DNA from: a virus
IMG/VR virus record: IMGVR_UViG_3300034101_003795
Span: 1-64,000 of that record
Direction: 5' to 3' (one strand)
DNA: 64,000 bases
A program made the translations under genes and the position numbers. Of the stretch, positions 14,301-33,567 are shown piece after piece (positions within the stretch are counted from its first letter, which is position 1; every line of letters starts with the position of its first letter). The notes under the pieces are model-generated. The model saw nothing but the letters and a program-made list of their open reading frames with translations. It ran no database searches and had not been told where the DNA came from.

Positions 14301-17300
14301 GAGCAGTAGTCTTGATAAAGCATTTGAAAAATTAACCAATACCACTAATAATGTTAAGATTGGTGAACTACAAAGTAGTATATTGTCTAATGTCAAAGAT
14401 GTAATTTCTTCAGAATCTGCAATCAGAAAAGAAAAATCAACAGCCTCAGCACCTAGTTGGTTCACAAAAACCTTTTTTGGCGCTAAAACAGATACCACTA
14501 AACTAAGTCAAGAATTAACTAGTTCTAGTAAATTAAGTGGAGAGACATTACAAAGATACATAATAGATGCTTTAAGAAAAGGCCAAACGTTCTCTCAAGT
14601 ACAAGGACAACTTAGAAATAGTGGAATCAATGCTCAGGATATAAAACAATCAATTGCCATAGCTCAAGGTGGCACTGCTGTTACCGACATAATGGCAAAA
14701 ATTACTGCTGCCCAACAAGAAAATAGAACAGGAGATCTTCCTGGATTACAAAAAGAGTTAGACACTATAATAAATAAATTAGTTAAAGAGTTTAGTGATG
14801 GTGCTATAGCACTGACTACTATTAGTGGAACCGGAGCAGCAGCAGCGGCTGCTGTAGATCTATTTGCTCAAAGTATAAAAAATGTATCAGCGGCAATAGG
14901 AAGGGCTTCTGCTGAATTTGATGAAGCTGAAAGAACTGCATCAATTTTATCAGCAGCGCCAGGACAAGCACTTTCTGCGGCCGGACCAAGCAGGCTAAAC
15001 GAAAATATATTTGATAATTTAAGATCATATTCATCACAAGAAGTTGTTGATGCTATTAATAGTCTTGGAGAAAAATTAAAATTTAGTCAAGGTTTTACTG
15101 GCGATCTTACAACAGCAGCCCTTAGTAAACAAGTATTAGAAGTTGGATTACCAAAAATATTAGCAGAAGCAGCTGCAAAACAACAGACTGGACAATTTAA
15201 TGAGACTGATAAAAACAGTATCCAAAAATCTTTATTAGGCTTATTTAAAAATGTCCCATCTATGGATCAAAACAAAGCCGAACTAGCTGTCACAGAAATT
15301 CTAGATACTATTCAAAAAATGACTACAGAAGGACAATCTGTAACTTTGCAGTCTCTTTCTGATAGTAGCAAAGCTCTTAATGAAATATTAAAAGGATTTA
15401 CAGAAACAACAGATGCAGCAAAAAATGCTCAAGTAGAATATAATAAATTACTTGATCAAGGTCGTCAATCGTTAATTGGACTTATAGAAGCTACTGATAA
15501 AGCTAGTGATTTGAGAAATCAAGCAGCTTCTGTTAGAAATCAAGGATCGGTACAATTATCCCAGGCCTTAGGACAATCAGTATCTTTAAAGGAACTAAAT
15601 TCATCTTTTGAAAAAACAATACAAACACTAACATCAACTATTGGTCCAAAAGGTGTTGTAGCTGGTACTGGAACTAATGACCCCAATCAAATAGCAGCAA
15701 GATTAGCTAAAAAACAAAAAGAAGAGGCTGATCTTCGTCTAAAATTAGATCAAGCAAATGTTGGTACTAATGAATATAATGCTTTACGATCTTCATTAGC
15801 TAGAGTTACATTAGAAGCTAGAAATTTAAGTAAGGCCCAAGAAAAATTAGCAACAGATAGTAGCAGAGCTTCTAATGCATTATCAAAAATACAAGAAATA
15901 AGAAGAACACAAGAGGCAGGAAGAGGATTATTTGAGAATCTTTTAACTAATATTAATAATCCAGACTGGCTATTAGAATTTCAAAGAAGTGTACAGTCAT
16001 TAAGAAATGTTATGAGTGGCCAAGGAACTAGTGAAGATATACCATTAGCTATAGAAGCTTTTAGACAAAGAGCATCAACACTGCCAGAGGCTCAGGCCGA
16101 AGAAGAGAGAAAAGATTTTTATGCAAAACTTAGAGAAATTTTAATTAATAGTGGGATAACAAGTCCAAAAGTTATTGATGCTATTCTTAATAAAATTGGG
16201 GCCAAGGGAGAAACTCAAGAATTACAAGATACTATAAAAGTATATACCGATGCTGTGATTGCTCAAGCAACAGCTCTTGAAAATCAGGCCGCTCAAACTG
16301 AGAAATCTGGACAAACCTTTTTTGGTCTTGTGAAAAAGGCTGGTGAAAATTTTGTTGCTACTATTGGTGGTGCTGCTGGTGGCGCTGGTGGTCAGCCAGT
16401 GGTAGGAAGACAGAATGGTGGAATGATTTATGCTAGTAAAGGTCAGTATGTAAATTTTCAACCAAGAGGAACTGATACTGTTCCTGCTATGTTAACTCCG
16501 GGAGAGTTTGTTGTTAATAAAAAAGCCACACAAAAAAATATTGGGTTATTAAAAAATATTAATAATGGTGGTAAAGGTTATAGTTCGGGTGGAGTTGTTT
16601 ATGCTAGAACAGGAGGAGAAATATTATCAAGTTTAGGCGATGCTTCTGATGTTTTATTTGCTTGGGATCTTGAAGGAAAAGGAATACCAGAAGATCGGTT
16701 TGACTGGGCTGCTATGAAAATACAAAGGGCAACTGATGAACTTGAAGAGAAAAGTTCGCTTACAAGAAATATAAATGATGATTTTATAGTTCGTGAGTTT
16801 TCTGGTCCTTCAAGAAGATTTATCTCTAAATCTGGTGCAGAAATAGCAAAACTCAATGACGCAGATTTTAGTGCATATAGGATGCCATTTAATGATGCGT
16901 ACAATGATTTAAAACGTTCTGATATATTAAAATATATTGATGATATGACCGTGCCAGCGCCACAACCAGGACAACCTCCTGTTGCTCCACCGTCGCCGCC
17001 ACAAAAACCTCAAGGCGCAGGATTTACTCTTCCCCCAGAAGGAGGACTTGCCGGCCAATTATCTTCATCGGATTTTATGAGAATGGGTGATCCGATTACA
17101 CAAAATATCGAAGCTAGAAGAGCAAAAGCTTTAGCTATTTCTAAAGATAAAGCTAAAACAAACGCATTTTATGATGAGCAAAGAGACAAAAGAGCGAATT
17201 TTATAGATAATGCTCCTCTTGCAGTAAAGAGAAAATTATTTAAAGATATTACAGAATCAGAAGACAGAAAAGGTCAAAGACTAGAAGAAAAAGCAGCAAG

Positions 17301-20190
17301 AGATGCTAAATTTTTAGAAATTGGTAGATCCGAAGCACAGATCCATGATGATGGTGGGGTTATTCTTAATGGTAAATTTATTGCAGACCCTACAGATGCT
17401 CAATTAATAGCATTAGGAAAACAAAGAGAACAGGAAATGAGAGAATACAAGAATGACATAAAACAATATGTTTTATTAAACGAAGACCTATTAAATAAAG
17501 CAAAAGCTGAAGCTTCAGCATTAAAAGATAAAACTGGATCATATTCAGAAGCTGATATTGCTAAAACATTAGCAGGAGATCCGTATGGAATGGCATCACT
17601 AGCCGGAGCCGGATCCATATCAATAACAGAAGCTGATATTAGGCGAAAACCACTAGGATATGATAAATTATCTAAGGATAAGCAGAGTAATTATGACAAT
17701 TATGTTGATTATTTAATTGAATTTAAATATGAGTTTGCCCGACAATCTGCACTAGAGGCTAAAATAGCAAAAAGAAGAGAAGCAGAAGCAAAACAGCGAG
17801 CTGATTTAGTCAAAGCTGAACAAGCTAAAAAAGACGATCTTAAACGACGAACAACTCCTGTAGTGAGTGATGAACCAATAACATCAGGATTTGCTGGTAT
17901 GCCGGAAGACAATCCTGATTTAAGAATGCCAACATTAGCAGATGCTCAGGCAGCTGACTCACAGATTAGAGCAAAAGAAGAAAAACAAGCAAGAAGAGAA
18001 TACGTTGCTAGTAAAGTGGCAGAATTTGCAGAAAAGAAAGATAGAATATTAAGCGAACTCAGTCAAGTCAGAAGCAGAGCGCAAAGTGATATTGATACAA
18101 CTTATAATAATCAACAATCATCATCATTTAATGGCGTAGTTTCGTCTGTTACCGGATCTGATCCTTATGCTATGCAAATACAAAATGCCAGAAAATTATT
18201 AGAAAGAGCTGATTATCTAAAACAAGATTTTAATAAGAGATGGATAAGTCGCATTGATCTTGCTAAAGATGGTAGATCATATGGAACTAAAGAACAAGTG
18301 GATCAAAATATTTCTGATAATACCAGTTTGGCCGAAGAGTATTTTAATGTATTAAGAGCTGTAAGATCTGGCGAATCTTCTAATGCAGACTTTTTTAATA
18401 ATACAGTTTTACCACAACATAATGAAGCTATTAATACAACTAGAGATGTGGCCGCTCAAGCAATTGTCGGGGCTGGCACACTAGGAGTTGGTGCTGCTGG
18501 AACTGCTACTGTTAGAGGAGCAATGGCGCTAGGTGCTGCAACAGGAGCGGCAGAATCAGCAACACTATCAACACTATCCGCTATTGATCAAGTAAAATCA
18601 AAACAAAAAACAATAGGAGAAGCAGTAACTGATGTTGCCACACAAACTGTAATTGGTGGTGCTGTTGGTGCTGTTACTGGAGGAGCTGGTCAAGTTGGTG
18701 GAGCCGGAGCAAGAGCATTATCAAAAGCATATGACGCTACTGTTGAACAAAATGCAAAAATAGCAGCAAAACAAGCCAAAATAGCAGCAGAACAAGCACA
18801 AGAAGCTGCCTCCGCTCAAGCTCGAAAGAAAGCACAACAAAAAGCGGCACAAGCAGCTAAAGAAAGAGCCGAAAGACAAGCCAAAGAACAAGCATCTAAA
18901 GCACAGGAAAATTTTGGACAAAAAGCAGGAGAATCTCAAGACGAATATTTGGCTAGAATTAGTGGTCGAGCTGTTGGTCCAAAAGCAGCCGCACAAACAG
19001 CAGCAGCAGCAAAAGCATCAGGAAAAACTGGTGGATCCTCAAGCACAGCCCCAAGAAATCCAGATGCTAAATATCCAGGATTTAGTAAAAAACCAATAAT
19101 GGATTACGATCAAATTCCTACTGGTAAAACTGGTGGAACAACTTCTACTACAGTTGAAGATGTTGTTGGTCTACCAGGAAGCGCAGGAGGAGGAAGAGAA
19201 ACAATAGCCTATAAAAGATCCAAAGCAACAACAGCACAAGCACAAAAACCAGCAGAACCATTATTTTTCCCACAAAGAAACTCATCAGCTCAGATGAGAA
19301 CATTTAGGTTTAGAGAAGCAGGAATACCTCAGTCTAAAATGGATGATTTAGTTAGTAAATATTACACAAATAAAACTCTCTTATCAAAAGACGAACTTAG
19401 ATGGGTCCAAGATTTTCTAAAAGATCCAGATAATGTAGCAGGATTTAATTTTAGATCAAATAGGCCAACAGCAGCAATGTCAAGGGGCGGAGTGGTTTAT
19501 GCTTCAAAAGGCCAGTTAATTCCATATATGCCAAAAGGTACCGATACTGTACCGGCCATGTTAACTCCTGGCGAATTCGTAATAAATAGAGCGGCCACAC
19601 AAAAACATCTACCATTATTAAGAGCCATAAATAATAATAGTAATAATGTACAAAGATTTAGTGGCGGCGGCAGAGTACAATATTTTGATAAGGGGTCTAA
19701 AGGAGCAGTTCAAGCATCATCTGGCGGCGGAGGTGTATCAAATATAAGTTTAGATACTACTGGATTGAATGGTGCTTTTGGTTCTTTTTCTCAATATGTT
19801 GAGAATCTTAAAGGCTATATTGATTCTTTTGGAGTATCACTAACGAATATTGGATCATTATTAGGAAATCTTTCGTCCATAGAATCTGGAGCAAGCAAAT
19901 TATCAGTATCAGCAGCCTCTTTAAGTTCAGCATCATCAAGACTTAATGACGCAATGATTACTTTAAATTCTTCTCTAGGAACTTTGGGTCAAAGTTTATC
20001 TAATGTACCAAAAGTTATTGATTTTAACGCTACTGGAGAAATACCAATTAATATTTCATTAGATGTTAATGGTGGTCAAGGATTAAATGATCAGCTATCT
20101 AAATTTGAAGATGATATATATACTAAAATAGAAAATGAATTGCGTAGAGCATTACCAGGTATTAATATAAACATAACTAGAAGTACATAA
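11314..20190 (+). CDS. Tail tape measure protein with internal repeat-bracketed insert regions
   Basis: 2958 aa. TP901-type TMP core (LAQAGL..., KFAVEASDIITAIQRTGG..., RESAETIATGLRTIFTRIQR), Ala-rich helical regions, hydrophobic segments, four DTVPAML(T/E)PGEFV-type motifs. Confidence 0.9.
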   Translation: MAAFNLTAQLNLQGPTNLRPVISAIRRELSSLTLDLNINPRTSQGIRSVTADVNQLSTALRNAQTNAAALNTQLRTLVNTLSAVSNTATSVATGLGTINRQISNNANAARQAGSEMEEFGRQSALAVRRFAAFSVATGSVYALVRAISSAYTEFVQFNKEFVKLQQVTDSTASSLGSLSSEITRLSTSLGVSSSELLNVSTTLAQAGLTATQTKTALQALARSALAPSFDNMNATVEGSIALMQQFGISTDNLESSLSSINSVAAKFAVEASDIITAIQRTGGVFASASKGVSEGTQALNEFIAIFTSVRATTRESAETIATGLRTIFTRIQRGSTIDALKEFGINLTDLDGKFVGVYEGTRRLSIALKGLDQRDLRFSKIIEELGGFRQIGKVIPLIQQFALAQQALGVAQRGAGSLASDAAKAQEALSVRVTKVREEFIALIRDIGQTQSFQRFVDISLSLASALISVANAAKEVLPAIAAIGAIRAVPAIGQYFSGVASGLGGRRRFARGGMVPGSGSGDTVPAMLEPGEFVIRKNAVNAIGSDNLHRINRYASGGTVKSLLSEKALLGKKYDTEEVEDLYSNIKIDRSNANKLSQTREAYREKAKEIWDQASSAYSSSGSLSGANRLIKTKVGLPLPSKLSSTELAKNNTDPRRLNKIQGSLAEKETYNRVNNLKQLPKEAGPDFSIGGSATSFVEVKNRRAYTSDDDLKAKALLGHQYVTKKSYLNKKLDEAPGLKISLFSSNEKDFQRAPKYASGGNVDSVPALLTPGEFVINKKSASAIGSSRLHQMNRADKIQGFNKGGFVGVQKFADGGEVENNNIMGFSPMTIITALIGITAGFVGLSRVIPSLGRAIGVFNRSVDMGLPRTGRGTARPGQPNAGRRDFTEQGSLVRRRGVLGMGQGADAIGLAFGGTAVAQSAGENIGGTLGKQVSETGTAIASVLGLAAAIPGLANPLGILTTVVVAGIAAFSAWNKATRDAAIAEQEKIIEQKSSSLDKAFEKLTNTTNNVKIGELQSSILSNVKDVISSESAIRKEKSTASAPSWFTKTFFGAKTDTTKLSQELTSSSKLSGETLQRYIIDALRKGQTFSQVQGQLRNSGINAQDIKQSIAIAQGGTAVTDIMAKITAAQQENRTGDLPGLQKELDTIINKLVKEFSDGAIALTTISGTGAAAAAAVDLFAQSIKNVSAAIGRASAEFDEAERTASILSAAPGQALSAAGPSRLNENIFDNLRSYSSQEVVDAINSLGEKLKFSQGFTGDLTTAALSKQVLEVGLPKILAEAAAKQQTGQFNETDKNSIQKSLLGLFKNVPSMDQNKAELAVTEILDTIQKMTTEGQSVTLQSLSDSSKALNEILKGFTETTDAAKNAQVEYNKLLDQGRQSLIGLIEATDKASDLRNQAASVRNQGSVQLSQALGQSVSLKELNSSFEKTIQTLTSTIGPKGVVAGTGTNDPNQIAARLAKKQKEEADLRLKLDQANVGTNEYNALRSSLARVTLEARNLSKAQEKLATDSSRASNALSKIQEIRRTQEAGRGLFENLLTNINNPDWLLEFQRSVQSLRNVMSGQGTSEDIPLAIEAFRQRASTLPEAQAEEERKDFYAKLREILINSGITSPKVIDAILNKIGAKGETQELQDTIKVYTDAVIAQATALENQAAQTEKSGQTFFGLVKKAGENFVATIGGAAGGAGGQPVVGRQNGGMIYASKGQYVNFQPRGTDTVPAMLTPGEFVVNKKATQKNIGLLKNINNGGKGYSSGGVVYARTGGEILSSLGDASDVLFAWDLEGKGIPEDRFDWAAMKIQRATDELEEKSSLTRNINDDFIVREFSGPSRRFISKSGAEIAKLNDADFSAYRMPFNDAYNDLKRSDILKYIDDMTVPAPQPGQPPVAPPSPPQKPQGAGFTLPPEGGLAGQLSSSDFMRMGDPITQNIEARRAKALAISKDKAKTNAFYDEQRDKRANFIDNAPLAVKRKLFKDITESEDRKGQRLEEKAARDAKFLEIGRSEAQIHDDGGVILNGKFIADPTDAQLIALGKQREQEMREYKNDIKQYVLLNEDLLNKAKAEASALKDKTGSYSEADIAKTLAGDPYGMASLAGAGSISITEADIRRKPLGYDKLSKDKQSNYDNYVDYLIEFKYEFARQSALEAKIAKRREAEAKQRADLVKAEQAKKDDLKRRTTPVVSDEPITSGFAGMPEDNPDLRMPTLADAQAADSQIRAKEEKQARREYVASKVAEFAEKKDRILSELSQVRSRAQSDIDTTYNNQQSSSFNGVVSSVTGSDPYAMQIQNARKLLERADYLKQDFNKRWISRIDLAKDGRSYGTKEQVDQNISDNTSLAEEYFNVLRAVRSGESSNADFFNNTVLPQHNEAINTTRDVAAQAIVGAGTLGVGAAGTATVRGAMALGAATGAAESATLSTLSAIDQVKSKQKTIGEAVTDVATQTVIGGAVGAVTGGAGQVGGAGARALSKAYDATVEQNAKIAAKQAKIAAEQAQEAASAQARKKAQQKAAQAAKERAERQAKEQASKAQENFGQKAGESQDEYLARISGRAVGPKAAAQTAAAAKASGKTGGSSSTAPRNPDAKYPGFSKKPIMDYDQIPTGKTGGTTSTTVEDVVGLPGSAGGGRETIAYKRSKATTAQAQKPAEPLFFPQRNSSAQMRTFRFREAGIPQSKMDDLVSKYYTNKTLLSKDELRWVQDFLKDPDNVAGFNFRSNRPTAAMSRGGVVYASKGQLIPYMPKGTDTVPAMLTPGEFVINRAATQKHLPLLRAINNNSNNVQRFSGGGRVQYFDKGSKGAVQASSGGGGVSNISLDTTGLNGAFGSFSQYVENLKGYIDSFGVSLTNIGSLLGNLSSIESGASKLSVSAASLSSASSRLNDAMITLNSSLGTLGQSLSNVPKVIDFNATGEIPINISLDVNGGQGLNDQLSKFEDDIYTKIENELRRALPGININITRST
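12838..12990 (+). repeat. TMP motif copy 1 (RFARGGMVPGSGSGDTVPAMLEPGEFVI...RYASGG)
   Basis: Protein- and DNA-level similarity to copies 2-4. Confidence 0.85.
13582..13770 (+). repeat. TMP motif copy 2 (KYASGGNVDSVPALLTPGEFVI...KFADGG)
   Basis: Shares TGTTAACTCCTGGCGAATT with copy 4. Confidence 0.85.
16405..16620 (+). repeat. TMP motif copy 3 (GGMIYASKGQ...GTDTVPAMLTPGEFVV)
   Basis: Shares GATACTGTTCCTGCTATG with copy 1 and YASKGQ with copy 4. Confidence 0.85.
19477..19700 (+). repeat. TMP motif copy 4 (GGVVYASKGQ...GTDTVPAMLTPGEFVI)
   Basis: Near-identical in protein sequence to copy 3. Confidence 0.85.
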
Positions 20191-23200: not shown

Positions 23201-23240
23201 AGAACTTAAACATCAACTGGATATTATTAATAATAAATAA
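20205..23240 (+). CDS. Trimeric tail fibre with YadA-like head repeats and C-terminal peptidase S74 intramolecular chaperone
   Basis: N-terminal YANRVQETT.GTG..L.L.G anchor; repeated (S/N)xxIGxxN units; C-terminal SSERFKENI...INPVYFNY...GLIAE...LDYGSMIVVLINSIKEL. Confidence 0.8.
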   Translation: MSIKYYANRVQETTSGTGASNLVLSGSPTGYRRFSTTIGPDKTITYYIYRSDNAFEWEIGTGYILSNGGIDQLVRQKVSSSSSAGSFVNFSAGTKYVETIISDDRVNTSFQNVEEKSSSFTAAYIPTTYIVNSSSGNVQVSLPTVISQEPIILGFLLTATSGNVYSQTDAIKLMPNGVETINGLSSKSLSIKSDYLQIASIPSKSGWIVLDPIQDSTNPYGSDGTIQFAQSQSFSGVSALSWDYSSSSLLIGGSGLASADNIISTSTLTTIFNEQSRDKDFRIEGSGTTHMFFVDASLNRIGINTSSVTDTLTVQTPPNLGIRLNASGLGPTITLVNTSPSGLSTNSRIGSIVFSGLNSSGSSIEYGRLYGKIISATSNAENSSIILEVLNNGTKKEVCSLTPSGVTLGFNNSNTNGILLGGASSNEGDNIVLGYYNNACGSNCVVIGNDSNVASGTFGGAIGRTIALSGSNVWVFGGSGVSLSGSNATYLALNNDNHIDIKGSGLIEYNTKTDGDTVLKIKNNRVLSSGVKESLSFEFQNVGGSKTGVLLTSDLVSVTNGSENSSLTSKILVDGASTEILRLQKSKILIGSNTSSGNNLSIGLSNTIYSTGNIIYGNNILTSGTNNVIVGSNLQASGNNISIFGSSNTCLVSGNLGVVIFGNSNSANEDYAVSLGSNNSSSGLYSVACGYLNGAHGAYSVGIGSNNTVVSKASVAVGRSNSINSSDIDASIFAVGIGNNVNINGSGTVIGHYNQLYGSGGLVIGKGCVSSGLNNIVIGNTNNVSGSNNFIFGNNINWSGSNTTIFGGSSLNIVWSGSSYVNATVAGSHNTLTTSSGVYINSTSGVYVSGNVISLTNSTNNRINISSTGVELYGSGTLALRSGPSGSVTLSTSGINYTNYPTATGVGTSLVIENNTIKAATSSERFKENIRPYDKGLNTLLQINPVYFNYKNSNVPRAGLIAESISELGLNEFVSKDANGQIESLDYGSMIVVLINSIKELKHQLDIINNK

Positions 23241-24718: not shown

Positions 24719-26170
24719 ATGGCTAATGATACTGTAAAATTAGGTGGAATCTCTTTAATTCCAGCACCATCTGTGAGTACCAGCTACGAATATAGTAAGA
24801 GTGGTGACTATATTATTGGGGGATTTTTAATAGTAACATTAAGTGGTAAAATTATTAGTGAAAGTGTTCTATCTGAATTAAATAGTATTTCTCAATTATC
24901 AGCTGGTAATAATTGTATATCTTTAAATATAGGTTGTAATGGTGGAGAGTTTTTAAGCGGAGCATCTGGCAAGATAAGATCCGCAGACGTTTCTATTGAT
25001 GATCAACCATTCTTAGGTAGTTATACTATACAAGTGGCAGTAGAGACAATAGATGGAAAGCCAGCTGTTGCTCCAGATAGTCAGTTTTTAAAATCTACAT
25101 GCTTATCTAATGCAGAATATATACAAAGCTATACTGAAAGTATTGGAATTAATGCCGACGCAAACTCTATTGGTCTTGTTGATGACGCTACTGGACTATC
25201 AAAAAGTTTTATTAAAGCGAATGGTCAAATTACGCTTGTTGGATTGTGTACGTTGATTTGTGGGAAACCAGAATTTACTACTATAGATAGTTTAGTAGGT
25301 ATTTTACGAACAAGAGCAGATAGTTTATTAGGATTACAAGCTTGTGAAGGATCAATATTGTCTTCGTACAATGGATGGAACAAGTGGATAGATACTCAAA
25401 CCTTAGATGTTAATAGTGCAACAGGTACAATAACATGGTCTTTTGATATGTATATGAGTCAAGGAAGCTTAGCTCCGTATGCGTGGGCTGATGTTACAAT
25501 AGAAGATAAATATGATCAAAAAAAAAGACTACAAACCAAAACTATGAGTGGAACAATTAGAGGTTTATCAACTTCTAGCGGTAGTTTTCTTGGAAATAAA
25601 CTAACGTCTGGTGAAAGGTTAGGTAACGCAAAAAAGGGTTATAATTTAGTAACAGGCATGTTGATGAGTGGTGGATGGCCATCCGATGGAAATATTATTA
25701 GTGGCGGAGAAGGAAATTGTACTTCAGCAGACGACCCATGTAAAAATCCAGTAGAAGCAACATGCTTACAAAGAATTAGTAGTAATGTAACAACATCTGT
25801 AGTTAATGGGGAAATATCCTTTTCTTCTGAATTTGGAAGCATAAGTGCCTGTAAGCCTAATCAAGAATCACAAATTGACGTTACTGTTGATGAAACTCTT
25901 CCTGCTGTTAGATATGTAGAAATTTTTGTTCCTAATGGTCGCAAATCAACAGTGGTTAATATTGGAGATACACCTGGCAAAGTAACAATAATGGGTAAAG
26001 GAACATTAAAAGGGTGCGATACTACACAAATGGGAAAAATGAAAAATTGTGTACAGGCTGAAATTTCTAAAGCACTTGGTCTTTATAGAGGGTGGCTGAA
26101 AGTCAAAGAGAACGAAAGTTTTGGAAGCTATTCTTATAGTAAAACTCTGGAGTATATAAGATGTGGCTAA
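24719..26170 (+). CDS. Baseplate/distal-tail-like structural protein B (paralogue of A)
   Basis: PSVSTSYEYSKSG..IIGG...TLSG; SGTI.GL; G.I.FS.E.G; nearly identical length (482 vs 483 aa). Confidence 0.45.
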   Translation: MANDTVKLGGISLIPAPSVSTSYEYSKSGDYIIGGFLIVTLSGKIISESVLSELNSISQLSAGNNCISLNIGCNGGEFLSGASGKIRSADVSIDDQPFLGSYTIQVAVETIDGKPAVAPDSQFLKSTCLSNAEYIQSYTESIGINADANSIGLVDDATGLSKSFIKANGQITLVGLCTLICGKPEFTTIDSLVGILRTRADSLLGLQACEGSILSSYNGWNKWIDTQTLDVNSATGTITWSFDMYMSQGSLAPYAWADVTIEDKYDQKKRLQTKTMSGTIRGLSTSSGSFLGNKLTSGERLGNAKKGYNLVTGMLMSGGWPSDGNIISGGEGNCTSADDPCKNPVEATCLQRISSNVTTSVVNGEISFSSEFGSISACKPNQESQIDVTVDETLPAVRYVEIFVPNGRKSTVVNIGDTPGKVTIMGKGTLKGCDTTQMGKMKNCVQAEISKALGLYRGWLKVKENESFGSYSYSKTLEYIRCG

Positions 26171-27372
26171 CATCTGGGAAAACATATTCTGATTTAGTAT
26201 CTAATGCTAATTCTTTTGTTACTGTTGGAGATACTGGAAATCCAGCATATAGTGGAACTGTTGGAGTATTAGGTAACGTTGATTATACTTATCAGATATC
26301 TAAATACGAAATTACACATCGTGAATATGTTTTATTTTTAAATAGTGTAGATCCTTTTGGAATTGATCCTAATGATATATATGATCCTCTTATTGGAAGA
26401 GGAATATTTATGGATAACACCAGAGTTGCTGGATATAGATATTATTTATCAGATGAAGTTTTTAATAATAAACCAGTAACTTATATAAGTTTTAGTAGAG
26501 CGGTAAGATTTTGTAATTGGTTACATAATGGTGGTAAAAGATATAAGGTTTCAGACTACACAGCTACCGCACCACAAAATATCGGAGCATATAATATTGG
26601 CGTAGAAACGATTAATTATGTGGCTCCTATTAATAATGCCACATTCCGATTACCAACATACTCAGAATGGTTCAAGGCGGCATATTATAATGGTAGTGGA
26701 GCATACAACTCATACGCAACCCAATCTAATATCGCTCCAGGACAGGTGTCTGCTTACAGTAACGGAGATGGATATTATCAGCCTTTAAACTTATTATCAA
26801 ATCTAGAATTAGACATATTAACAAATAATAATAGTCAATTTAATGTCACAAACAACAATATTTCAAACTTACAATTTGATATATTAAGAAATGATATTTC
26901 TGTACATAATAGAATTTCAAATCTAGAATTAGACATATTAAGTAGTAATAATAATAATAATGGTATAACAAATAATCATATTTCAAATCTACAATTTGAT
27001 ATATTAAGCAATAATTTAGTTTTAATAAATAATATAATGTCATACTCACAATTTGATATATTGTGTTGTTCCCCACCAATCATATATAACAGCCTTAATT
27101 CTTCATCACTACAGAATGATATATTTTTGTCTACCACAAATAGTAAGTATTTAGAAAATATAATCACTTATCATAATTATGATATTTTAACTTCATCGGC
27201 TAGTTCATATAGTAGTAATTTATCGAACTTTCAAATAGACATATTATCGTCAAATAAAACTATAAATACGCAAATATTAATGTTAAATATAGACTGTTTA
27301 TGTTCAGAAAATAAAAAATATCTAATTAACAGTATATCGGTTTACGATGTTTTATGTAACAAAAAAAGTTGA
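26161..27372 (+). CDS. Virion protein: N-terminal half of an FGE/SUMF1-type (C-type lectin fold) domain fused to SNLxxDIL repeats
   Basis: FVTVGDTGN..VDYTYQISKYEIT..EY..FLNSVDP..KPVTYIS...AVRFCNWLHNG..FRLPTYSEWFKAAYY..YATQSN.AP..NGDG; lacks the YG.YD..GNV.E and GFR end. Confidence 0.75.
   Translation: MWLTSGKTYSDLVSNANSFVTVGDTGNPAYSGTVGVLGNVDYTYQISKYEITHREYVLFLNSVDPFGIDPNDIYDPLIGRGIFMDNTRVAGYRYYLSDEVFNNKPVTYISFSRAVRFCNWLHNGGKRYKVSDYTATAPQNIGAYNIGVETINYVAPINNATFRLPTYSEWFKAAYYNGSGAYNSYATQSNIAPGQVSAYSNGDGYYQPLNLLSNLELDILTNNNSQFNVTNNNISNLQFDILRNDISVHNRISNLELDILSSNNNNNGITNNHISNLQFDILSNNLVLINNIMSYSQFDILCCSPPIIYNSLNSSSLQNDIFLSTTNSKYLENIITYHNYDILTSSASSYSSNLSNFQIDILSSNKTINTQILMLNIDCLCSENKKYLINSISVYDVLCNKKS
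26797..27355 (+). repeat. About 10 degenerate S-x-x-x-x-D-I-L repeats in Asn-rich spacers
   Basis: SNLELDIL, SNLQFDIL, SNLELDIL, SNLQFDIL, SYSQFDIL, SSLQNDIF, TYHNYDIL, SNFQIDIL...; DNA TCAAATCTAGAATTAGACATATTA at 26797 and 26917 (120-nt period). Confidence 0.8.
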
Positions 27373-27385
27373 CCATTTTTCAAAT

Positions 27386-27393
27386 GGTGTATA
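27386..27393 (+). promoter_or_regulatory. Candidate late-promoter motif GGTGTATA
   Basis: Intergenic, upstream of the AAGGAGA RBS of 27426; overlaps a small CCATTT/AAATGG inverted repeat. Confidence 0.5.
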
Positions 27394-27425
27394 AGATTTA
27401 TATATAAAGACACAAGGAGACTATT

Positions 27426-28661
27426 ATGCCAATTGTATTTTTTGAAGGATTTAATAATTCTAATACTGATGTTCCAAAATTAGAATCTAATTATTGGACA
27501 ACAAATAATTTAGGTACTTTAACCTTGGGAACTACAAATTATGCCAGAACGGAAAATTCTCTTATTATCGATAATAGAACTAGAACTTTAGGAACAGGAT
27601 CAAATACTACTGTTACATTATCAAATTTTTCTGATCCTTTATTAACAAACAATGCTTTTGCTATTGGTTTTTCCATAGGTGCCGTTATGGGAGCAGAAAC
27701 TACTGATGCTTCTGGTGTAGTAGACCCGTATAATGCAAAATTTTTAACCTTTTTTAGGAGTGGAGTTCCTGTTCTGGATCTTGATTTTGTTAAAACAACA
27801 TATAGTGGAAGTCCTAGTCTAGGTATACAAGTTAGACAAAATGGTACTGGTGTTTCTACACACGATTTTCGTAGTATGGATCTATCATCATTTAATTCAC
27901 CAGATAGCTTTTTGGATTATGATCCACCTTTGTTATTTGTAGACAATAATATATACTTTGAGTGTTTTGTTGATGCTAAATCACAAAATAAACTATTAAT
28001 GCGATTTTCTGTAGATGGTGGTAGTCAAAACTTAATACCAAAAAATAGTAGCAATAGTATTTATACTAGCATCAGCGGATTTACCAATTTGACAAGTGTA
28101 AGATTTTATTCTATGTCATGGGGTGTAGCAGATGGGTTTTCTAATACTGCAAGGAGAACATTAGATGATTTATATATAAACGGTAGTGGTAATGCAGATA
28201 CTTGTCTGTTAGGATCTGATACGAAAATTCACAGAATAATACCAATTAGTGGTACCCCAATTAGTGGATGGATAAGTAATACTAACAACCCTGTAAATAG
28301 TATTATTTCTGCAGATGGAGATGCTTCTTATATATATGCTGATCTTCTTACTAGTGGAGTTCAAAGCTTGTTTGTTTTTAGTGATGTTCCTGCAGGTGCT
28401 CCAACAGGATTAATTTTAGTAAAATCTATTAATATTGCTAGAAAAACCGCAATAGATACTAATGGTAAATTTATTAATGTGATGAGATCTGGAACAACGG
28501 GTACTGTTACTGAATTAGGAAATTCATATACTATTAGTGGTCTTGATTATAGTACATTTTCTAATTTTATATACAATAATCCTGTTACCGGAAGCGGATG
28601 GAAATTATCTGAAATTAATAACATGCAGATTGGTATTAAAACTCAAGGAACTGGCGTTTGA
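27426..28661 (+). CDS. Virion structural protein (LamG/ConA-like beta-sandwich type)
   Basis: Starts MPIVFFEGFN, has LDDLYI...LG and ends NPVTGSGW.LSEINNMQIGIK, a pattern I recognise from phage tail-associated proteins. Confidence 0.55.
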   Translation: MPIVFFEGFNNSNTDVPKLESNYWTTNNLGTLTLGTTNYARTENSLIIDNRTRTLGTGSNTTVTLSNFSDPLLTNNAFAIGFSIGAVMGAETTDASGVVDPYNAKFLTFFRSGVPVLDLDFVKTTYSGSPSLGIQVRQNGTGVSTHDFRSMDLSSFNSPDSFLDYDPPLLFVDNNIYFECFVDAKSQNKLLMRFSVDGGSQNLIPKNSSNSIYTSISGFTNLTSVRFYSMSWGVADGFSNTARRTLDDLYINGSGNADTCLLGSDTKIHRIIPISGTPISGWISNTNNPVNSIISADGDASYIYADLLTSGVQSLFVFSDVPAGAPTGLILVKSINIARKTAIDTNGKFINVMRSGTTGTVTELGNSYTISGLDYSTFSNFIYNNPVTGSGWKLSEINNMQIGIKTQGTGV

Positions 28662-28686
28662 ATTAATTGGTAATTAGGATAAATTT

Positions 28687-31600
28687 ATGGTTTCTCCAGG
28701 AAATAATACATCAAACTATAGTAGTAAAGCTGTTTGGAGTGGATCGTCGGCAAAACCAACTACGGTTGGTACAAATGGTGGTCCAAGCTATTATGGAACC
28801 TATGATCAAGATGGAAATGTAAGCGAAATTGTACTAGGAAGTTTCCCTAATACTGGAACACCAGACTCTAATGCATTTCCCTACGGGGCTGGCGGAAACT
28901 TTTTCAGTAGTGCTGTTGGAAGAAATGTAAATTATTTTACTAACTTTGGAGCGAATTTAAATTCTGGTGGTTTTAGGCTCGTAGCAAAAGAATATACTAA
29001 TATACAAATTTCATCTGTTAGTCCAGAATTTTTTAATCCTAATTCCGGTATTGTTCAATCTTTTTATATTAATAATTATGAAAATTTTCCTATTACTGGA
29101 CTACAGATATCAGGATATTATAAAAATATTCTTAATCCAGTATGGTCTGGTTCATACGATCCATCATCATCTGGTACAATAAGCGGCACAGGGAACATAT
29201 TAATAAATTGTACTCTTGGATCTAGTGGCAGTTTAATTATTAACTTTAGTGGAATTCCTAAATCTGGACTTTCTATATTATCTAATAGAATAACATTATA
29301 TACTTCAAATAATTATAATCTACAACAAAATTATTATAAGATTAGTAGTACAATTTCATCAGATAATGAAATTAATAGTTTGAATTACCAGCATAAATTT
29401 TCTCAACTTAATTGGGGTAGTATAAGCCCTAATTCTTTTGTTGTGGTTGACGATATAGGAAATTCAAATGCTTTTGATGTTTATCAAAATAATTTAGGAT
29501 CATATGTAGGAGGAGTAAATTATTATTATAATATTACTAAATATTACATCACAAATAATGAATATTGTTTATTTTTAAACAGCGTGGATCCACAAGGAAC
29601 AAATCCACAAAATATTTATTCCACATACGTACCAAATACAATAACTTATTCATCTGAAAATATTAATGGCAACAAATATAGTGTTATAACTTCAGGATAC
29701 AATAGAGGGAATAAACCAATAGATAATATTCCAGTAGCAAATATGTTGCGATATTGTAATTGGTTACATAATGGAGGCAAAAGATATAATACAACATCAT
29801 CTGGAATTTCTGCACCACAAAATACCGGTTCTTATAACGTTGGTACTGGTGTGAATGTTCTCCCAACGATACCACAGGGCACAGGAAGATTTAGACTACC
29901 AAATGCTCACGAGATAACCAAAGCATCTTATTACAGAGGTAGTGATGGTATTTATTGGAATTTTGGAACAAAAACAAATAGTGCTCCACTAAGCGCTGGT
30001 ATACATGCTCCAACAAGAGATAGTCAGCTACCTAGTGGAGTTAGTGGATTAGAATTACGACAATCATATAATACTGCAAATTTTGGTACTGCATTAACAA
30101 CAGCAGGAACTAATGGCGCTTCAAGTCCATATGGATTATATGATGTTGAAGGTTCTGTTATGGAAGTAACTCATCACGGAAGCAATTTTTTTGCTATGCG
30201 CAATTCGTCATGGAGGAGCACCACAACAATAGCCAGACTGAACTCACTTTTATTTGTTAGCGTGGCAAATATTGATACAGAATTTAATGCTGGGTATGCT
30301 TATGGTTTCAGAGTAGTATCTAGTGGATTGATAGGCGATATCGGTTTAGATTTAGAAAGTGCGGGAATTTATTATAATCAATCAATCCCTATTGAAGCAA
30401 CAGCAACAATAGAAAATAGTTTCAATATTCCAAGTACTTTTTCAGTTCTTTTATCAGTATCTGGACAAAATACTAGTCCTGGATATTGGACACCTTATTA
30501 TTTTAATGGAGCTACTGGACCAAATGTAGTTCAAAATAATATAGGGTCTAGTATATCGTTACCATCAGATGATAGTAAAGTTATATTTACTTTAGCTGGC
30601 GCCACGCCAAATGAAGTAGCAACAACTCCAATAGTTATAAATGGAACCATTACTCCTATTGGTTTTGGTGATCTATCATTAGAAAATAATAGTGATAGTA
30701 TTATTAAATATATTGATCCACAGACAAATCTAGGAGTATCAATAACAGGATCTCAAGTGGTAAACAAGGGAGAGAATATAAGTTATGATATAATAGTAAG
30801 TAATACTGGTAGTAGTTATGTTAGTGGTATAAATCTGTCTACTAATATATCTCCATTAAATAATATTAATTACAGATGGAACCAAGATCTTAGCCGTAGC
30901 ACATCATCTATAGTGTCAGTTCCGCCATCAGGAACTGGAAATATAGTATCAAATATTTCGCTTTTACCAAATACGTATTCTATATTTAGTATAAGTGGTT
31001 TAGTTACTAATACTTATTATCCTATAACAGCATATTCTAGCATTAGTGTTACGGGAAATCAGAGTGGATTTAAGGAGAGCAGCGCATCAACATCGTTTGG
31101 GCCAACAGATCTACAAATAAGATATACCGGGATTCCAATCTACCATTCTGATGGACAATTTGTAAATTATAAAATATTAATTACTAATTCTGGTAGTAAC
31201 GATTCTATAAATTCAAGATTCTTTCATAACTTTACTAGTTTATCTGGTATAAATTGGTCAATTGTTTATGGACCATCATCAACTGGAATAACTAATGGAT
31301 CAGGAATTATTGACGCTTATATCCTTTTAGGATCAAACAGTAGTGCTACCATTAATGTAGATGGTATAGCTAGTAACTCAAAGTATGGGGATATATTATT
31401 AACATCATCTATCACACCAACAGTAATTACTGATAGTAATTTATCAAATAATACTGCAATTATTAATATACCTCATAGTATAGCTATAAAAAATATCAAG
31501 TATAGTGAGAATAGTTGTGATAATAATGGTTATATTACCATTGGAATAACTGGAGGAATACCACCATATTCATATACTATCAATAATGAAACAATATCTT

Positions 31601-33567
31601 CTAATGATACTATACTCACAATAGAAAATCTAGAGGCTGGCTCATATACTCCATTAGTATCCGATAGTACTAATACTGTATATTATTATCCTGAAACTAT
31701 TACAATTATAGATAGTTCTATTACTGCTACTGTGGGAAATATTTATTCTCCATTATTATTAGATAGTTATGGTGTTGTTAACTTGTCTGTTGCTGGTAGC
31801 GGTGCTCCTTATGCTTTTGTGTTTACAAATTCAACAGATAATAGCATATCAATTCCATCACTGGAAACCAAGTATATTGTTTCTTCAGAAACAGATAACT
31901 CTTTAATTAATTATAGATTTGATAATCTATTAACTCCAGACAGTTATTCATATCTGATACAAGATAAGTATGGATGTCGTTCGTCAGGATCTTTTAATAT
32001 TCCAAATATATCTGAATTAAGCGTGCAGGTTTCAACAATTGATAATAATCCTATAGTCACAGCTATTCCATCATTAACATTAGATATTTTTGATACTATA
32101 TTGATACCATATAAACATATTAAAAATAATACTAATCTTTGGAAATTAATTAAAACATTAGATCTGAAAGACTATATTAGCATATTAATTAATAATGAAA
32201 AATATGAATTTAGAATAGTCAGAGATATGCTTGATAAGCACTGTGTTGATACTCAAAACAATATAGAATTATTAAGATTTGGTAATTCTGAAGAAGATTG
32301 GTATTTCTTCTTTTATATCGCTCCATCTGTTGATTTGACAAATGATCAAACCAATATTGATAGTTCTTTTGAGATTTTAGATACTAATACTCAAGAAAAG
32401 TTCTTATTAACATTAGGTTTATCAGAAACTAATACGTTAGAACAAGACAATCCAAGTTTAATAAGAGGCAGTTTTATTCTTAATGGTTTGGGCTATAATG
32501 AATATTCAGATAATACTGAAGCTAATATTTCAATAGGATATAATTCAGATAATCAATACAATTATTATATTAATAATATTAAGAAAATACTACTCAATAA
32601 TATATATAGCGTGGGATTTGTTACTACTATCAGTTTTCTAGAACAATTTAATATTGCTAGAGAATATATTACTATTGGACAAACATCGTGCAGTCTATCT
32701 AAAGAAGACTATCAATATAAATTAAATATTAAAAATCTACTTATAGATATCAATAATTTTAATAATGTTAATAATGTTTATATATTAAATGCTAATAGTA
32801 TTTCTAATAATGGACAATTAAACACATTCATACTTGGTAATGATACTTTTATAACTGAAGATGGAACTTTAACTAATTCTTATACTATAGAATATTTTAC
32901 TTTTGACAAAAATTCAACTAGTTTCAAACATTTTGAGATGAATAATGAAATTATTAAAGATATTAATGTAATTAGTGAATTAGATTCAAGATACATAATT
33001 ATTAGAGCTAAAGATACATATAATAATATACCAAAGAGTATTAGTATTAATGGAGTAGTATCGTCTTATGATAATCATTTTATAATAGCTCAAAGAGATT
33101 TACAAAATTATAATAATTCTATATTATCAGAATTTAAGTACGGTGATATTTTAGTATTTATCAAAGATCTATCTACTATTAATAGTGTTGATAACGAAGT
33201 ATCCGGACTAGATCCTAATACTGGTTTACCTGGAACTACCGTTTTAGGAGGAACCACCAATTCGCTTGTGACAAATATTATTGAACAAACAAAAGACTCG
33301 TCAGGTACTGGATCATTGTTACTACAAATACCTTCTAAAACAGAGGTTGAAGTATTTGGCCCTAATAAATACTTTATTAAAGTTAGTTCTGATACAACAT
33401 TTAAAAATTTAATTCCTGGACTTTATATTATTAAAGGAAATGAAGACAGTTTAAAGAAGAATAATCTTTATCAAAATGAACTAAGAATTTTAATATCTAA
33501 GAATATTCTTTCGACTATAACAATTGAATTTACTAGTTATACAAATAAATTATTTATTAAGGATTAA
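28687..33567 (+). CDS. Large multidomain adhesin/receptor-binding protein: FGE C-terminal half, complete FGE domain, DUF11-like Ig domains, SprB-like repeat
   Basis: N-terminus TTVGTNGGPSYYGTYDQDGNVSE...GFRLV; full FGE about 29437-30324 (FLNSVDP..RYCNWLHNG..FRLP..YGLYDVEGSV.E..GFRVV); GENISYDIIVSNTG and GQFVNYKILITNSG..DSNLSNN; GYITIGITGGIPPYSY..NLEAGSY. Confidence 0.75.
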   Translation: MVSPGNNTSNYSSKAVWSGSSAKPTTVGTNGGPSYYGTYDQDGNVSEIVLGSFPNTGTPDSNAFPYGAGGNFFSSAVGRNVNYFTNFGANLNSGGFRLVAKEYTNIQISSVSPEFFNPNSGIVQSFYINNYENFPITGLQISGYYKNILNPVWSGSYDPSSSGTISGTGNILINCTLGSSGSLIINFSGIPKSGLSILSNRITLYTSNNYNLQQNYYKISSTISSDNEINSLNYQHKFSQLNWGSISPNSFVVVDDIGNSNAFDVYQNNLGSYVGGVNYYYNITKYYITNNEYCLFLNSVDPQGTNPQNIYSTYVPNTITYSSENINGNKYSVITSGYNRGNKPIDNIPVANMLRYCNWLHNGGKRYNTTSSGISAPQNTGSYNVGTGVNVLPTIPQGTGRFRLPNAHEITKASYYRGSDGIYWNFGTKTNSAPLSAGIHAPTRDSQLPSGVSGLELRQSYNTANFGTALTTAGTNGASSPYGLYDVEGSVMEVTHHGSNFFAMRNSSWRSTTTIARLNSLLFVSVANIDTEFNAGYAYGFRVVSSGLIGDIGLDLESAGIYYNQSIPIEATATIENSFNIPSTFSVLLSVSGQNTSPGYWTPYYFNGATGPNVVQNNIGSSISLPSDDSKVIFTLAGATPNEVATTPIVINGTITPIGFGDLSLENNSDSIIKYIDPQTNLGVSITGSQVVNKGENISYDIIVSNTGSSYVSGINLSTNISPLNNINYRWNQDLSRSTSSIVSVPPSGTGNIVSNISLLPNTYSIFSISGLVTNTYYPITAYSSISVTGNQSGFKESSASTSFGPTDLQIRYTGIPIYHSDGQFVNYKILITNSGSNDSINSRFFHNFTSLSGINWSIVYGPSSTGITNGSGIIDAYILLGSNSSATINVDGIASNSKYGDILLTSSITPTVITDSNLSNNTAIINIPHSIAIKNIKYSENSCDNNGYITIGITGGIPPYSYTINNETISSNDTILTIENLEAGSYTPLVSDSTNTVYYYPETITIIDSSITATVGNIYSPLLLDSYGVVNLSVAGSGAPYAFVFTNSTDNSISIPSLETKYIVSSETDNSLINYRFDNLLTPDSYSYLIQDKYGCRSSGSFNIPNISELSVQVSTIDNNPIVTAIPSLTLDIFDTILIPYKHIKNNTNLWKLIKTLDLKDYISILINNEKYEFRIVRDMLDKHCVDTQNNIELLRFGNSEEDWYFFFYIAPSVDLTNDQTNIDSSFEILDTNTQEKFLLTLGLSETNTLEQDNPSLIRGSFILNGLGYNEYSDNTEANISIGYNSDNQYNYYINNIKKILLNNIYSVGFVTTISFLEQFNIAREYITIGQTSCSLSKEDYQYKLNIKNLLIDINNFNNVNNVYILNANSISNNGQLNTFILGNDTFITEDGTLTNSYTIEYFTFDKNSTSFKHFEMNNEIIKDINVISELDSRYIIIRAKDTYNNIPKSISINGVVSSYDNHFIIAQRDLQNYNNSILSEFKYGDILVFIKDLSTINSVDNEVSGLDPNTGLPGTTVLGGTTNSLVTNIIEQTKDSSGTGSLLLQIPSKTEVEVFGPNKYFIKVSSDTTFKNLIPGLYIIKGNEDSLKKNNLYQNELRILISKNILSTITIEFTSYTNKLFIKD

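What the first reader, a model, noticed from the sequence alone, without database searches (positions are those of the whole stretch)
26161..28990. FGE/C-type-lectin domain split cleanly between two virion genes around a 1.9 kb inserted module
Seen: ORF 26161 has the FGE N-half ending ...RLPTYSEWFKAAYY...YATQSNIAPGQVSAYSNGDG (26772) and then switches abruptly to SNLxxDIL repeats. ORF 28687 begins with the missing C-half (MVSPGNNTSNY...TTVGTNGGPSYYGTYDQDGNVSE...GFRLV). The intact FGE copy further along the same ORF (29437-30324) shows these blocks are normally contiguous. Both halves keep their motifs, ORF 28687 has its own AGGA RBS, and the intervening gene has a candidate promoter and RBS. 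Inference: the two halves may re-associate in trans, coupling two fibre proteins through a complemented domain. Alternatively this is a recent module insertion caught before decay.
Basis: partly seen in the sequence, partly recalled or inferred. Interest (0 to 1): 0.72.

Follow-up and report, generated by a model that had tools for sequence, protein, structure and literature searches.

The report
Lectin-like domain split between two tail-fibre genes
In the tail-fibre genes of an uncultured phage, one sugar-binding-type (FGE/C-type-lectin-like) domain is divided between two separate genes; the division is old and conserved, so the two halves probably snap together to join two fibre proteins, though this is not yet shown.

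Summary
Gene A (26161-27372) carries only the N-half of an FGE-fold domain (aa 18-204, ending at an invariant GDG) followed by about ten SNLxxDIL repeats. Gene C (28687-33567) opens with the matching C-half (aa 5-99) and also holds an intact copy (aa 250-544). The 92-kb record has exactly two N-halves and two C-halves.

The "recent insertion" and "assembly chimera" readings are refuted. Fourteen A-type proteins (39-72% identical) all lack a C-half. Eleven C-type proteins (35-82%) all start with it at the same residue. A, B and C co-occur on independent contigs, including a fully syntenic IMG/VR phage (L026). Both halves evolve no faster than the intact copy.

New context: the break lies at the loop where most related phage fibre genes carry a circularly permuted FGE domain (C-half, about 10 aa, then N-half). 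That makes three topologies of one fold: canonical, permuted and two-chain.

Association of the halves in trans is the best-supported mechanism (about 0.5) but is only inferred. No multimer prediction was available and the single-chain model of C was useless. I rate this a new variant of a known kind, of moderate to high interest.

The parts
11314..20190 (+). Tape measure protein (context: places genes A-C in the tail/fibre module)
   Evidence: PF10145 PhageMin_Tail E 3.7e-23 and TMP_N
26161..27372 (+). Gene A, 403 aa: conserved 17-aa N-terminal peptide, orphan FGE N-half, repeat tail
   Evidence: ORF list. PF03781. Eight full-length homologues with the same architecture.
26212..26772 (+). FGE-fold N-half (Nh), aa 18-204, ending at the invariant GDG
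   Evidence: Family HMM iE 4.5e-62. Six-frame scan of the genome. 43% identity to the intact copy.
26773..27369 (+). Repeat tail of gene A: about ten (I)SNLxxDIL motifs every 18-22 aa, then a conserved C-terminal end
   Evidence: DNA repeats D1, D2 and D5 spaced 54-66 nt. Motif positions. A similar repeat module is a free 118-aa ORF in front of a B homologue in L027.
27426..28661 (+). Gene B, 411 aa, conserved virus protein of unknown function lying between the two halves
   Evidence: AAGGAG ribosome-binding site. Weak phrog_2448 match. Homologues at 31-76% identity on the same contigs as A and C. Atlas lead to Laminin_G_3 only.
28687..33567 (+). Gene C, 1626 aa, long fibre/adhesin. In order: orphan C-half, beta-sandwich, intact FGE-fold domain, DUF11/SprB-like units, long C-terminal part
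28699..28983 (+). FGE-fold C-half (Ch1), aa 5-99, with the motifs TTVGTNGGPSYYGTYDQDGNVSE and GFRLV
   Evidence: Family HMM iE 3.6e-28, model positions 1-95 of 95. Core motif 80% mean pairwise identity in the C family.
28999..29433 (+). Spacer, aa 105-249, with a predicted beta-sandwich in aa 105-205
   Evidence: This is the only part of the AF2 model of C 1-560 with pLDDT 55-73 and all strands. Among 1.84 billion representatives it occurs only in C-family proteins, always starting at residue 1-6.
29434..30318 (+). Intact canonical FGE-fold domain of gene C (Nh2 aa 250-437, Ch2 aa 462-544)
   Evidence: PF03781 E 3.5e-8. Family HMMs.

Best explanation
Genes A, B and C form a conserved tail-fibre module downstream of the tape measure gene. 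One non-catalytic FGE-fold (C-type-lectin-like) domain is encoded in two pieces. The N-half sits at the N-terminus of protein A. The C-half sits at the N-terminus of protein C.

The break lies in the surface loop after GDG. Related phage fibre genes place the chain ends of their circularly permuted version of this domain in the same loop. The fold therefore tolerates an open chain there.

I propose that the two fragments fold together non-covalently (fragment complementation) into one complete domain. That domain would act as a joint tying protein A, with its repeat tail and possibly protein B, to the proximal end of the long fibre protein C.

Shown: the split is real, exact, old, co-inherited and under purifying selection. 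The permuted form exists and models as one compact FGE fold. Inferred: the physical association in trans, and its role as a joint.
For: (1) The halves are exactly complementary, with no overlap and no gap relative to canonical relatives.

(2) The 92-kb record holds exactly 2 N-halves and 2 C-halves.

(3) All 14 A-family proteins have an N-half and no C-half. All 11 C-family proteins begin with the C-half at residue 5-13.

(4) A, B and C co-occur. Contig 22943 has all three. Contig 92106 has A and C. L026 has full synteny: up3, up2, A, B, C, dn.

(5) Selection is not relaxed. Window against L026, pN is 0.35 for A's N-half against 0.41 for the intact N-half, and 0.47 for Ch1 against 0.55 for Ch2, with pS saturated at about 0.7-0.8. 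L024 against L026, Ch1 has the lowest pN of all segments. The Ch1 core motif is 80% identical on average, against 67% for Ch2.

(6) The phylogenies are congruent. A-family N-halves and the intact N-half of C form one clade (support 0.95). Ch1 of the nearer relatives is sister to Ch2 (0.78). The two orphan halves therefore behave as the halves of one paralogue of the intact domain.

(7) The same loop is the chain end in permuted units. These were 62 of 103 units in my sample, and nearly all of 60 IMG/VR loci carry them. Some whole proteins end at ...GDGIL and others start at ...PG.N.ANY.

(8) The permutation is real against solved FGE structures. Profile positions 48-112 align to chain residues about 199-263, and positions 195-287 to residues 76-171. 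A permuted protein (P0017) models as one compact domain (pTM 0.82). All 12 of its structural matches are FGE-fold proteins.

(9) No unsplit orthologue appeared in 5.8 billion clusters or 1.84 billion representatives.
Against: There is no direct test of association. The single-chain AF2 model of C aa 1-560 was useless (mean pLDDT 34).

The structural matches of the permuted model are modest (Z 4-6), and Foldseek found nothing.

The C-half tree is poorly resolved. Ch1 of the three most distant C-type proteins falls outside the Ch1+Ch2 clade.

A few proteins elsewhere appear to have a lone C-half or N-half, though many of these are probably truncated gene calls. Orphan halves may therefore be viable alone.

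Protein C has two C-halves and one N-half, so which C-half would pair with A is open.
Confidence: 0.5

Rival explanations
1. Ancient gene fission with no reassembly. Each half persists as an autonomous module. For example, the C-half would be the family's usual N-terminal piece of a fibre gene, and the N-half would be stabilised by oligomerisation of protein A. The two proteins would not touch through these pieces.
For: A C-half at the very start of a gene is the family norm. A-family members have kept a lone N-half across wide divergence, including 1000-1350-aa forms. A few other proteins show a lone C-half with unrelated flanks: P0130, P0163 and P0184. No structural evidence for association was obtained.
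Against: In all those relatives the N-terminal C-half is followed in cis by an N-half, so it is never shown to be stable alone. Both orphan halves keep every family-wide motif, and their pN is equal to or lower than that of the intact copy. The exact 2:2 balance and the co-inheritance would be coincidence. Half of a mixed alpha/beta lectin-like fold is unlikely to be stable by itself (general knowledge of the fold, not tested).
Confidence: 0.3
2. Pairing in cis inside protein C. Ch1 folds with Nh2 as a permuted unit that has the beta-sandwich inserted in the Ch-Nh linker. Ch2 is then spare and is either redundant or is the piece that complements A's N-half.
For: Relatives exist with 300 or more aa between a C-half and the next N-half and no other partner: P0076, L050, L065 and L072. 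Ch1 resembles the C-halves of permuted units more than it resembles Ch2 (mean identity 0.35 against 0.30).
Against: Nh2 and Ch2 are contiguous in the canonical order with a short loop, which is the arrangement expected to fold first. The Nh2-Ch2 pair is conserved in all C-family members. This reading still leaves one orphan C-half and A's orphan N-half, so it does not remove the need for a trans partner.
Confidence: 0.15
3. An artefact or transient state: an assembly chimera, a fresh mobile-element or intron insertion, or a decaying pseudogene.
For: A and C are in the same reading frame and the intervening stretch is 1914 nt, exactly 638 codons (read from the coordinates). That has a one-in-three chance. 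L027/L028 show that a repeat module plus gene B can occur in another context.
Against: The same architecture occurs in independent assemblies from several sources, at 35-82% identity. There is no Rfam intron. There are no flanking repeats at 26772/28687. The record has no reverse transcriptase. The intervening DNA encodes two conserved protein segments. Selection is purifying. In L026 the A-type and C-type genes are not in the same frame.
Confidence: 0.02

Closest known systems
FGE-sulfatase fold (PF03781) used as a non-enzymatic, C-type-lectin-like binding domain, e.g. Treponema denticola TvpA (PDB 2Y3C) and other targets of diversity-generating retroelements; also CarF (5AOH), pFGE/SUMF2 (1Y4J), PorK
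   Same: Same fold by sequence profile and by model. It has no catalytic cysteines and sits in surface or virion proteins where a ligand-binding role is expected.
   Different: Here the domain is encoded by two genes, and in relatives it is circularly permuted. The 92-kb record has no reverse transcriptase, template repeat or variable repeat. No GenBank phage record gave a tblastn match to these domains.
Circular permutation of lectin-type domains (concanavalin A against favin; the duplication-then-truncation model). From general knowledge.
   Same: Relatives carry C-half/N-half units with the chain ends moved to one surface loop. Tandem Ch-Nh-Ch-Nh arrays (L007, P0109) and gene C's Ch...Nh-Ch order look like the duplication intermediates that model predicts.
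   Different: My literature searches turned up no report of a permuted FGE fold (limited library). The two-chain form goes one step beyond permutation.
Fibre assembly by completing an incomplete fold in trans: donor-strand complementation in chaperone-usher pili; naturally split proteins such as phage T4 topoisomerase gp39/gp60 or split DnaE. From general knowledge.
   Same: The principle is the same: an incomplete domain in one polypeptide is completed by a piece of another, or one ancestral gene is divided by inserted DNA and the products reassemble.
   Different: Here roughly two-thirds and one-third of a lectin-like domain would combine, rather than a single strand. No intein or chaperone is evident. 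Association has not been demonstrated.

Membership tests
FGE-sulfatase domain family (Pfam PF03781) | Match to the Pfam model above the gathering score | tested here: met
   Gene A scores 34.5 bits and the intact copy in gene C 33.8 bits, against a cut-off of 23.3. Ch1 alone scores 13.2 bits (E 0.073), below the cut-off, but matches the family-specific C-half HMM at iE 3.6e-28.
FGE-sulfatase domain family (Pfam PF03781) | All fold elements present in one chain in N-to-C order | tested here: not met
   Gene A covers model positions 36-141 only. Ch1 of gene C covers about 149-224 and beyond. The intact copy in C does meet this feature.
Formylglycine-generating enzymes (catalytic FGE/SUMF1) | Pair of catalytic cysteines in the C-terminal half | tested here: not met
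   Read directly from the translations: Ch1 (aa 1-110) and Ch2 (within P0003) contain no cysteine at all. This is a binding or structural scaffold, not an enzyme.
Target protein of a diversity-generating retroelement | Reverse transcriptase plus a template/variable repeat pair next to a C-terminal CLec/FGE domain | tested here: not met
   No RVT_1 match in the 92-kb record. No long near-identical repeat covers a C-half. The record is estimated 66% complete, so absence from the whole phage is not proven.
Circularly permuted FGE unit of phage fibre genes (defined here from relatives) | C-half followed within about 10-45 aa by an N-half in the same chain, with chain ends at the GDG loop | tested here: not met
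   The window has no such cis unit. In gene C, Ch1 is followed by a 150-aa beta-sandwich and then a canonical domain. Gene A has no C-half. The break point is the same loop.
Phage tail-fibre / adhesin module | Position downstream of the tape measure gene, among large repeat-rich proteins | tested here: met
   The tape measure gene is at 11314-20190. The next gene has a Peptidase_S74 chaperone domain. Gene C has DUF11-like and SprB-like units. Presence in the virion was not tested.
Self-splicing intron or intein insertion | Intron RNA family or intein motifs at the break | tested here: not met
   No Rfam match at E<=1 except a chance lncRNA hit. The intervening DNA encodes the conserved tail of A and protein B. 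Intein motifs were not searched for specifically.

The most novel reading that the evidence does not exclude
Two phage tail-fibre proteins are joined by non-covalent completion of a split lectin-like (FGE-fold) domain. This would be a fibre-assembly joint of a kind not described before. The same fold would then exist in this phage family in three topologies: canonical, circularly permuted and two-chain, all opened at one loop.
Probability: 0.45. Interest if true: 0.75.

Novelty: new variant of a known kind. Interest (0 to 1): 0.6.

Why it matters
If the halves do assemble, this is a natural split-domain connector in a virion. It would show how modular fibre genes can be cut and re-joined at the protein level. 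It would also be a ready-made heterodimerisation pair for protein engineering.

Independently of that, the FGE fold in uncultured phage fibres is mostly circularly permuted at one loop. This matters for annotation, because Pfam sees only a partial domain or two out-of-order hits. It also matters for modelling receptor-binding proteins. The family offers a clean natural series (tandem, permuted, split) for studying how permutation and gene fission arise.

Tried and rejected
- blastn and tblastn of the region and of both halves against GenBank phages gave no match. P0017 gave none either.
The contigs of the closest A, B and C homologues could therefore not be fetched, and co-occurrence rests partly on contig-length fingerprints.
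- The search for related loci with A or its alignment did not return the close relatives from viral or metagenome contigs.
- The AF2 model of C aa 1-560, built with 9 sequences, had mean pLDDT 34 and says nothing about Ch1.
- Foldseek against the PDB with the permuted model found nothing at E<=0.001. VIA-align wide did find the FGE fold.
- The diversity-generating retroelement idea was rejected because there is no reverse transcriptase.
- The intron idea was rejected.
- A mobile-element insertion with flanking repeats was rejected.
- The promoter in front of B is not above chance.
- L027/L028 were considered as a 'fused' orthologue of A with a cis C-half. This was rejected as an orthologue, because that gene has RCC1-like repeats and a different tail. 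It remains weak support that the repeat module plus B travel together.
- dN/dS proper could not be computed. The pairs are either nearly identical (L024/L025) or saturated at synonymous sites, so only pN comparisons are given.
- The short 'C-half only' proteins among the representatives are mostly likely truncated gene calls and were not used as evidence.
- Literature searches found no report of a permuted or split FGE fold. The library is limited.
Full report
**Setting.** The window is the first 64 kb of a 91,952-bp IMG/VR virus record with about 32% G+C, estimated 66% complete. Gene 11314-20190 is a tape measure protein (PF10145, E 3.7e-23). The next gene (20205-23240) ends in a Peptidase_S74 chaperone domain. 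Then come two paralogous ~480-aa genes, followed by the three genes of the finding and a 1230-aa gene. All are on the + strand and tightly packed. The finding therefore lies in the tail tip and fibre module. PHROGs and Pfam know almost nothing about these proteins.

**The observation.**
- Gene A (26161-27372, 403 aa) matches the FGE-sulfatase model only over its first half (model positions 36-141 of 255). It is 43% identical (E 3e-41) to the N-terminal part of an intact FGE-fold domain inside gene C. After G-D-G (aa 202-204) it changes to about ten (I)SNLxxDIL motifs spaced 18-22 aa apart.
- Gene C (28687-33567, 1626 aa) starts with about 100 aa that Pfam sees only weakly as the second half of the model (positions 149-224, E 0.073). 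An HMM built from relatives matches this stretch over its full length (iE 3.6e-28).
- A six-frame scan of the whole record finds exactly two N-halves (26212-26760 and 29434-29997) and two C-halves (28699-28983 and 30073-30318).
- Canonical relatives read ...YATQ..P..V...GDG, a short linker, then G.N.ANY/W...TTVGTNG. A stops at GDG and C begins M-V-S-P-G-N-N-T-S-N-Y, so the cut is exact.
- Each gene has its own Shine-Dalgarno sequence. The promoter-like site before gene B is not above chance.

**The split is old and conserved.**
- A search of 5.8 billion protein clusters found seven full-length homologues of A (39-72% identical, 361-400 aa). All share the same N-terminal peptide (MWL.SGKTY), an N-half ending in the invariant GDG, and a repeat tail. 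None has a C-half.
- A wider A-type group (P0012, P0013, P0069, P0070, P0072 and the L026 gene) keeps the same N-terminal peptide and a lone N-half, with an extra inserted domain and other tails.
- Homologues of C (35-82% identical, 1620-1764 aa) all begin MV.PG.N... with the C-half at residue 5-13. They all also keep the later intact domain.
- Homologues of B (31-76%) lie on the same contigs. Contig 22943 has A, B and C. Contig 92106 has A and C. Contigs 86840 and 57854 have A and B. Contigs 15358, 29228 and 67103 have B and C.
- One distant IMG/VR phage (L026/L030, 78.7 kb) shows the complete synteny: up3, up2, A-type, B, C-type, downstream gene. Protein identities there are 36-54%.
- No unsplit orthologue was found. 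This holds among proteins of similar length and among 1.84 billion representatives. In the latter, C's first 250 residues occur as a whole only in two C-family clusters, always starting at residue 1-6.
- These results exclude an assembly chimera and a recent insertion. There is also no intron family, no flanking repeat and no reverse transcriptase.

**Selection.**
- Within the A family the N-half is more conserved than the tail (59% against 44% mean pairwise identity). Within the C family the core motif of the orphan C-half is more conserved than that of the intact copy (80% against 67%).
- Synonymous sites are saturated between the window and L026 (pS 0.69-0.82). Non-synonymous divergence is 0.35 for A's N-half against 0.41 for the intact N-half, and 0.47 for Ch1 against 0.55 for Ch2.
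- Between L024 and L026, Ch1 has the lowest pN of all segments of gene C. Neither half shows relaxed constraint.

**The family context changes the picture.**
- In more distant phage relatives the two halves are usually in one gene but in the reverse order: C-half, about 10 aa, N-half, with no C-half afterwards. There were 17 such units in the first set of loci. They made up 62 of the 103 complete units in my whole sample. They dominate the 60 IMG/VR loci.
- Many genes start with this unit within their first 5-15 residues. Others end with it. Whole small proteins consist of it: P0017 has 324 aa and ends ...GDGIL.
- In giant fibre genes the units are separated by Pro/Thr-rich linkers that begin right after GDG. 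The unit is therefore a self-contained bead, not a canonical domain with a huge insertion.
- A profile of the permuted units matches solved FGE-fold chains in swapped order. Profile positions 48-112 align to chain residues about 199-263, and positions 195-287 to residues 76-171. The matched chains include 5AOH, 1Y4J and 1Y1E.
- An AF2 model of P0017 is one compact domain (pTM 0.82, pLDDT 71.5, higher in the N-half).
- All 12 structural matches with Z>=2 among 48,161 chains are FGE-fold proteins: CarF, TvpA, ToxD, EgtB, PorK, CalU17, pFGE, PvdO and others, with Z 3.4-6.0. They align mainly to the larger half, as expected for a sequential aligner on a permuted fold. Foldseek alone found nothing.
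- The loop after GDG is thus a place where this fold naturally tolerates free chain ends, and it is exactly where A and C are cut.

**Origin.**
- In a tree of N-halves, the A-family orphans and the intact N-half of the C family form one clade (support 0.95). In a tree of C-halves, Ch1 of the nearer relatives is sister to the Ch2 clade (0.78). The three most distant Ch1 sequences fall just outside, and the 95-column alignment resolves poorly.
- The two orphan halves therefore behave as the two halves of one domain that is a paralogue of C's intact domain.
- The gene order is N-half, then the rest of A and gene B, then the C-half. This fits an ancestral long fibre gene whose first canonical domain was opened at the GDG loop by a cassette made of the repeat module plus gene B.
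- In L027/L028 a free 118-aa ORF with the same kind of ..L..D.L repeats directly precedes a B homologue in another context. This supports the idea that the two travel together.
- The event predates the divergence of lineages that now share only 35-50% identity.

**Mechanism.** The domain has no cysteines in either C-half, so it is not a formylglycine-generating enzyme. Like other FGE-type C-type-lectin folds, it is a binding or structural scaffold.
- The best-supported reading is that A's N-half and C's N-terminal C-half fold together into one domain. In that composite, A's repeat tail would leave at the GDG loop, just as linkers leave permuted units. The rest of C would leave at GFRLV, next to A's conserved N-terminal peptide. 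The domain would then be a branch point joining a short fibre or adaptor (A, perhaps with B) to the long fibre (C).
- In favour are the exact complementarity, the 2:2 balance, the strict co-conservation, the retained motifs and the proven tolerance of the break point.
- Against it, nothing here tests binding. No multimer prediction was available, and the single-chain model of C aa 1-560 was uninformative apart from a beta-sandwich at aa 105-205.
- I put about 0.5 on trans-complementation by Ch1. I put about 0.15 on the variant in which Ch1 pairs in cis with Nh2 and Ch2 is the spare piece. I put about 0.3 on independent orphan halves, and about 0.02 on an artefact or a transient state.

**Novelty.** FGE-type lectin folds in phage and bacterial surface proteins are known, for example as targets of diversity-generating retroelements (PMC5758913 and PMC3521204 were retrieved). 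I found no report of a circularly permuted or a two-gene FGE fold, though the library searched is limited. GenBank phage genomes gave no tblastn match to these modules. I class this as a new variant of a known kind.

Noticed in passing
L003-L089 (e.g. L007:588-11852, L014:4032-10958, L054:6101-12793): Uncultured phage fibre genes carry circularly permuted FGE-fold units (C-half then N-half). Units occur singly at a gene's start or extreme end, or up to five per giant ORF (3,755 aa in L007), separated by Pro/Thr-rich linkers. Pfam would report these as partial or out-of-order hits.
   Followed up: partly
L027:6692-9988 (= L028, L042, L043): A fibre gene combines RCC1-like propeller repeats, a permuted FGE unit and HxH..SDI fibre repeats. 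A single in-frame stop follows it, then a 118-aa ORF with a poly-Thr stretch and ..L..D.L repeats like gene A's tail, then a homologue of gene B.
   Followed up: partly
window 26507-26546 and 29750-29789: A 40-nt stretch is 93% identical between the two N-half copies (the CNWLHNGGKRY region), within otherwise about 70% identical DNA. This is a possible trace of gene conversion, or a substrate for recombination between genes A and C.
   Followed up: no
window 27426-28661 against contig 22943 (P0090): Gene B is 76% identical to its homologue on a contig whose A and C are only 42% and 49% identical. No B homologue could be tied to contig 92106, whose A and C are 70% and 82% identical. The module is mosaic.
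   Followed up: no
window 23262-24710 and 24719-26170: Two adjacent paralogous genes of 482 and 483 aa (about 25-27% identical via L026 cross-matches) have no family match. They are conserved in order in L026. The stop of the second overlaps the start of gene A (ATGTGGCTAA).
   Followed up: no
window 20205-23240: This 1011-aa protein directly after the tape measure gene ends in a Peptidase_S74 intramolecular chaperone domain (aa 922-967). That is typical of self-cleaving tail spikes and fibres.
   Followed up: no
P0057, P0058 (metagenome proteins of 1,925 and 1,883 aa): These proteins carry scrambled arrays of whole and partial N-halves and C-halves: three C-halves in a row, then several N-half fragments. 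This suggests frequent unequal recombination within these repeats.
   Followed up: no
GenBank phage collection: tblastn of the N-half, the C-half and a whole permuted unit found no match in 50,697 deposited phage genomes. Dozens of IMG/VR contigs carry them, so this fibre module seems confined to uncultured phages.
   Followed up: partly
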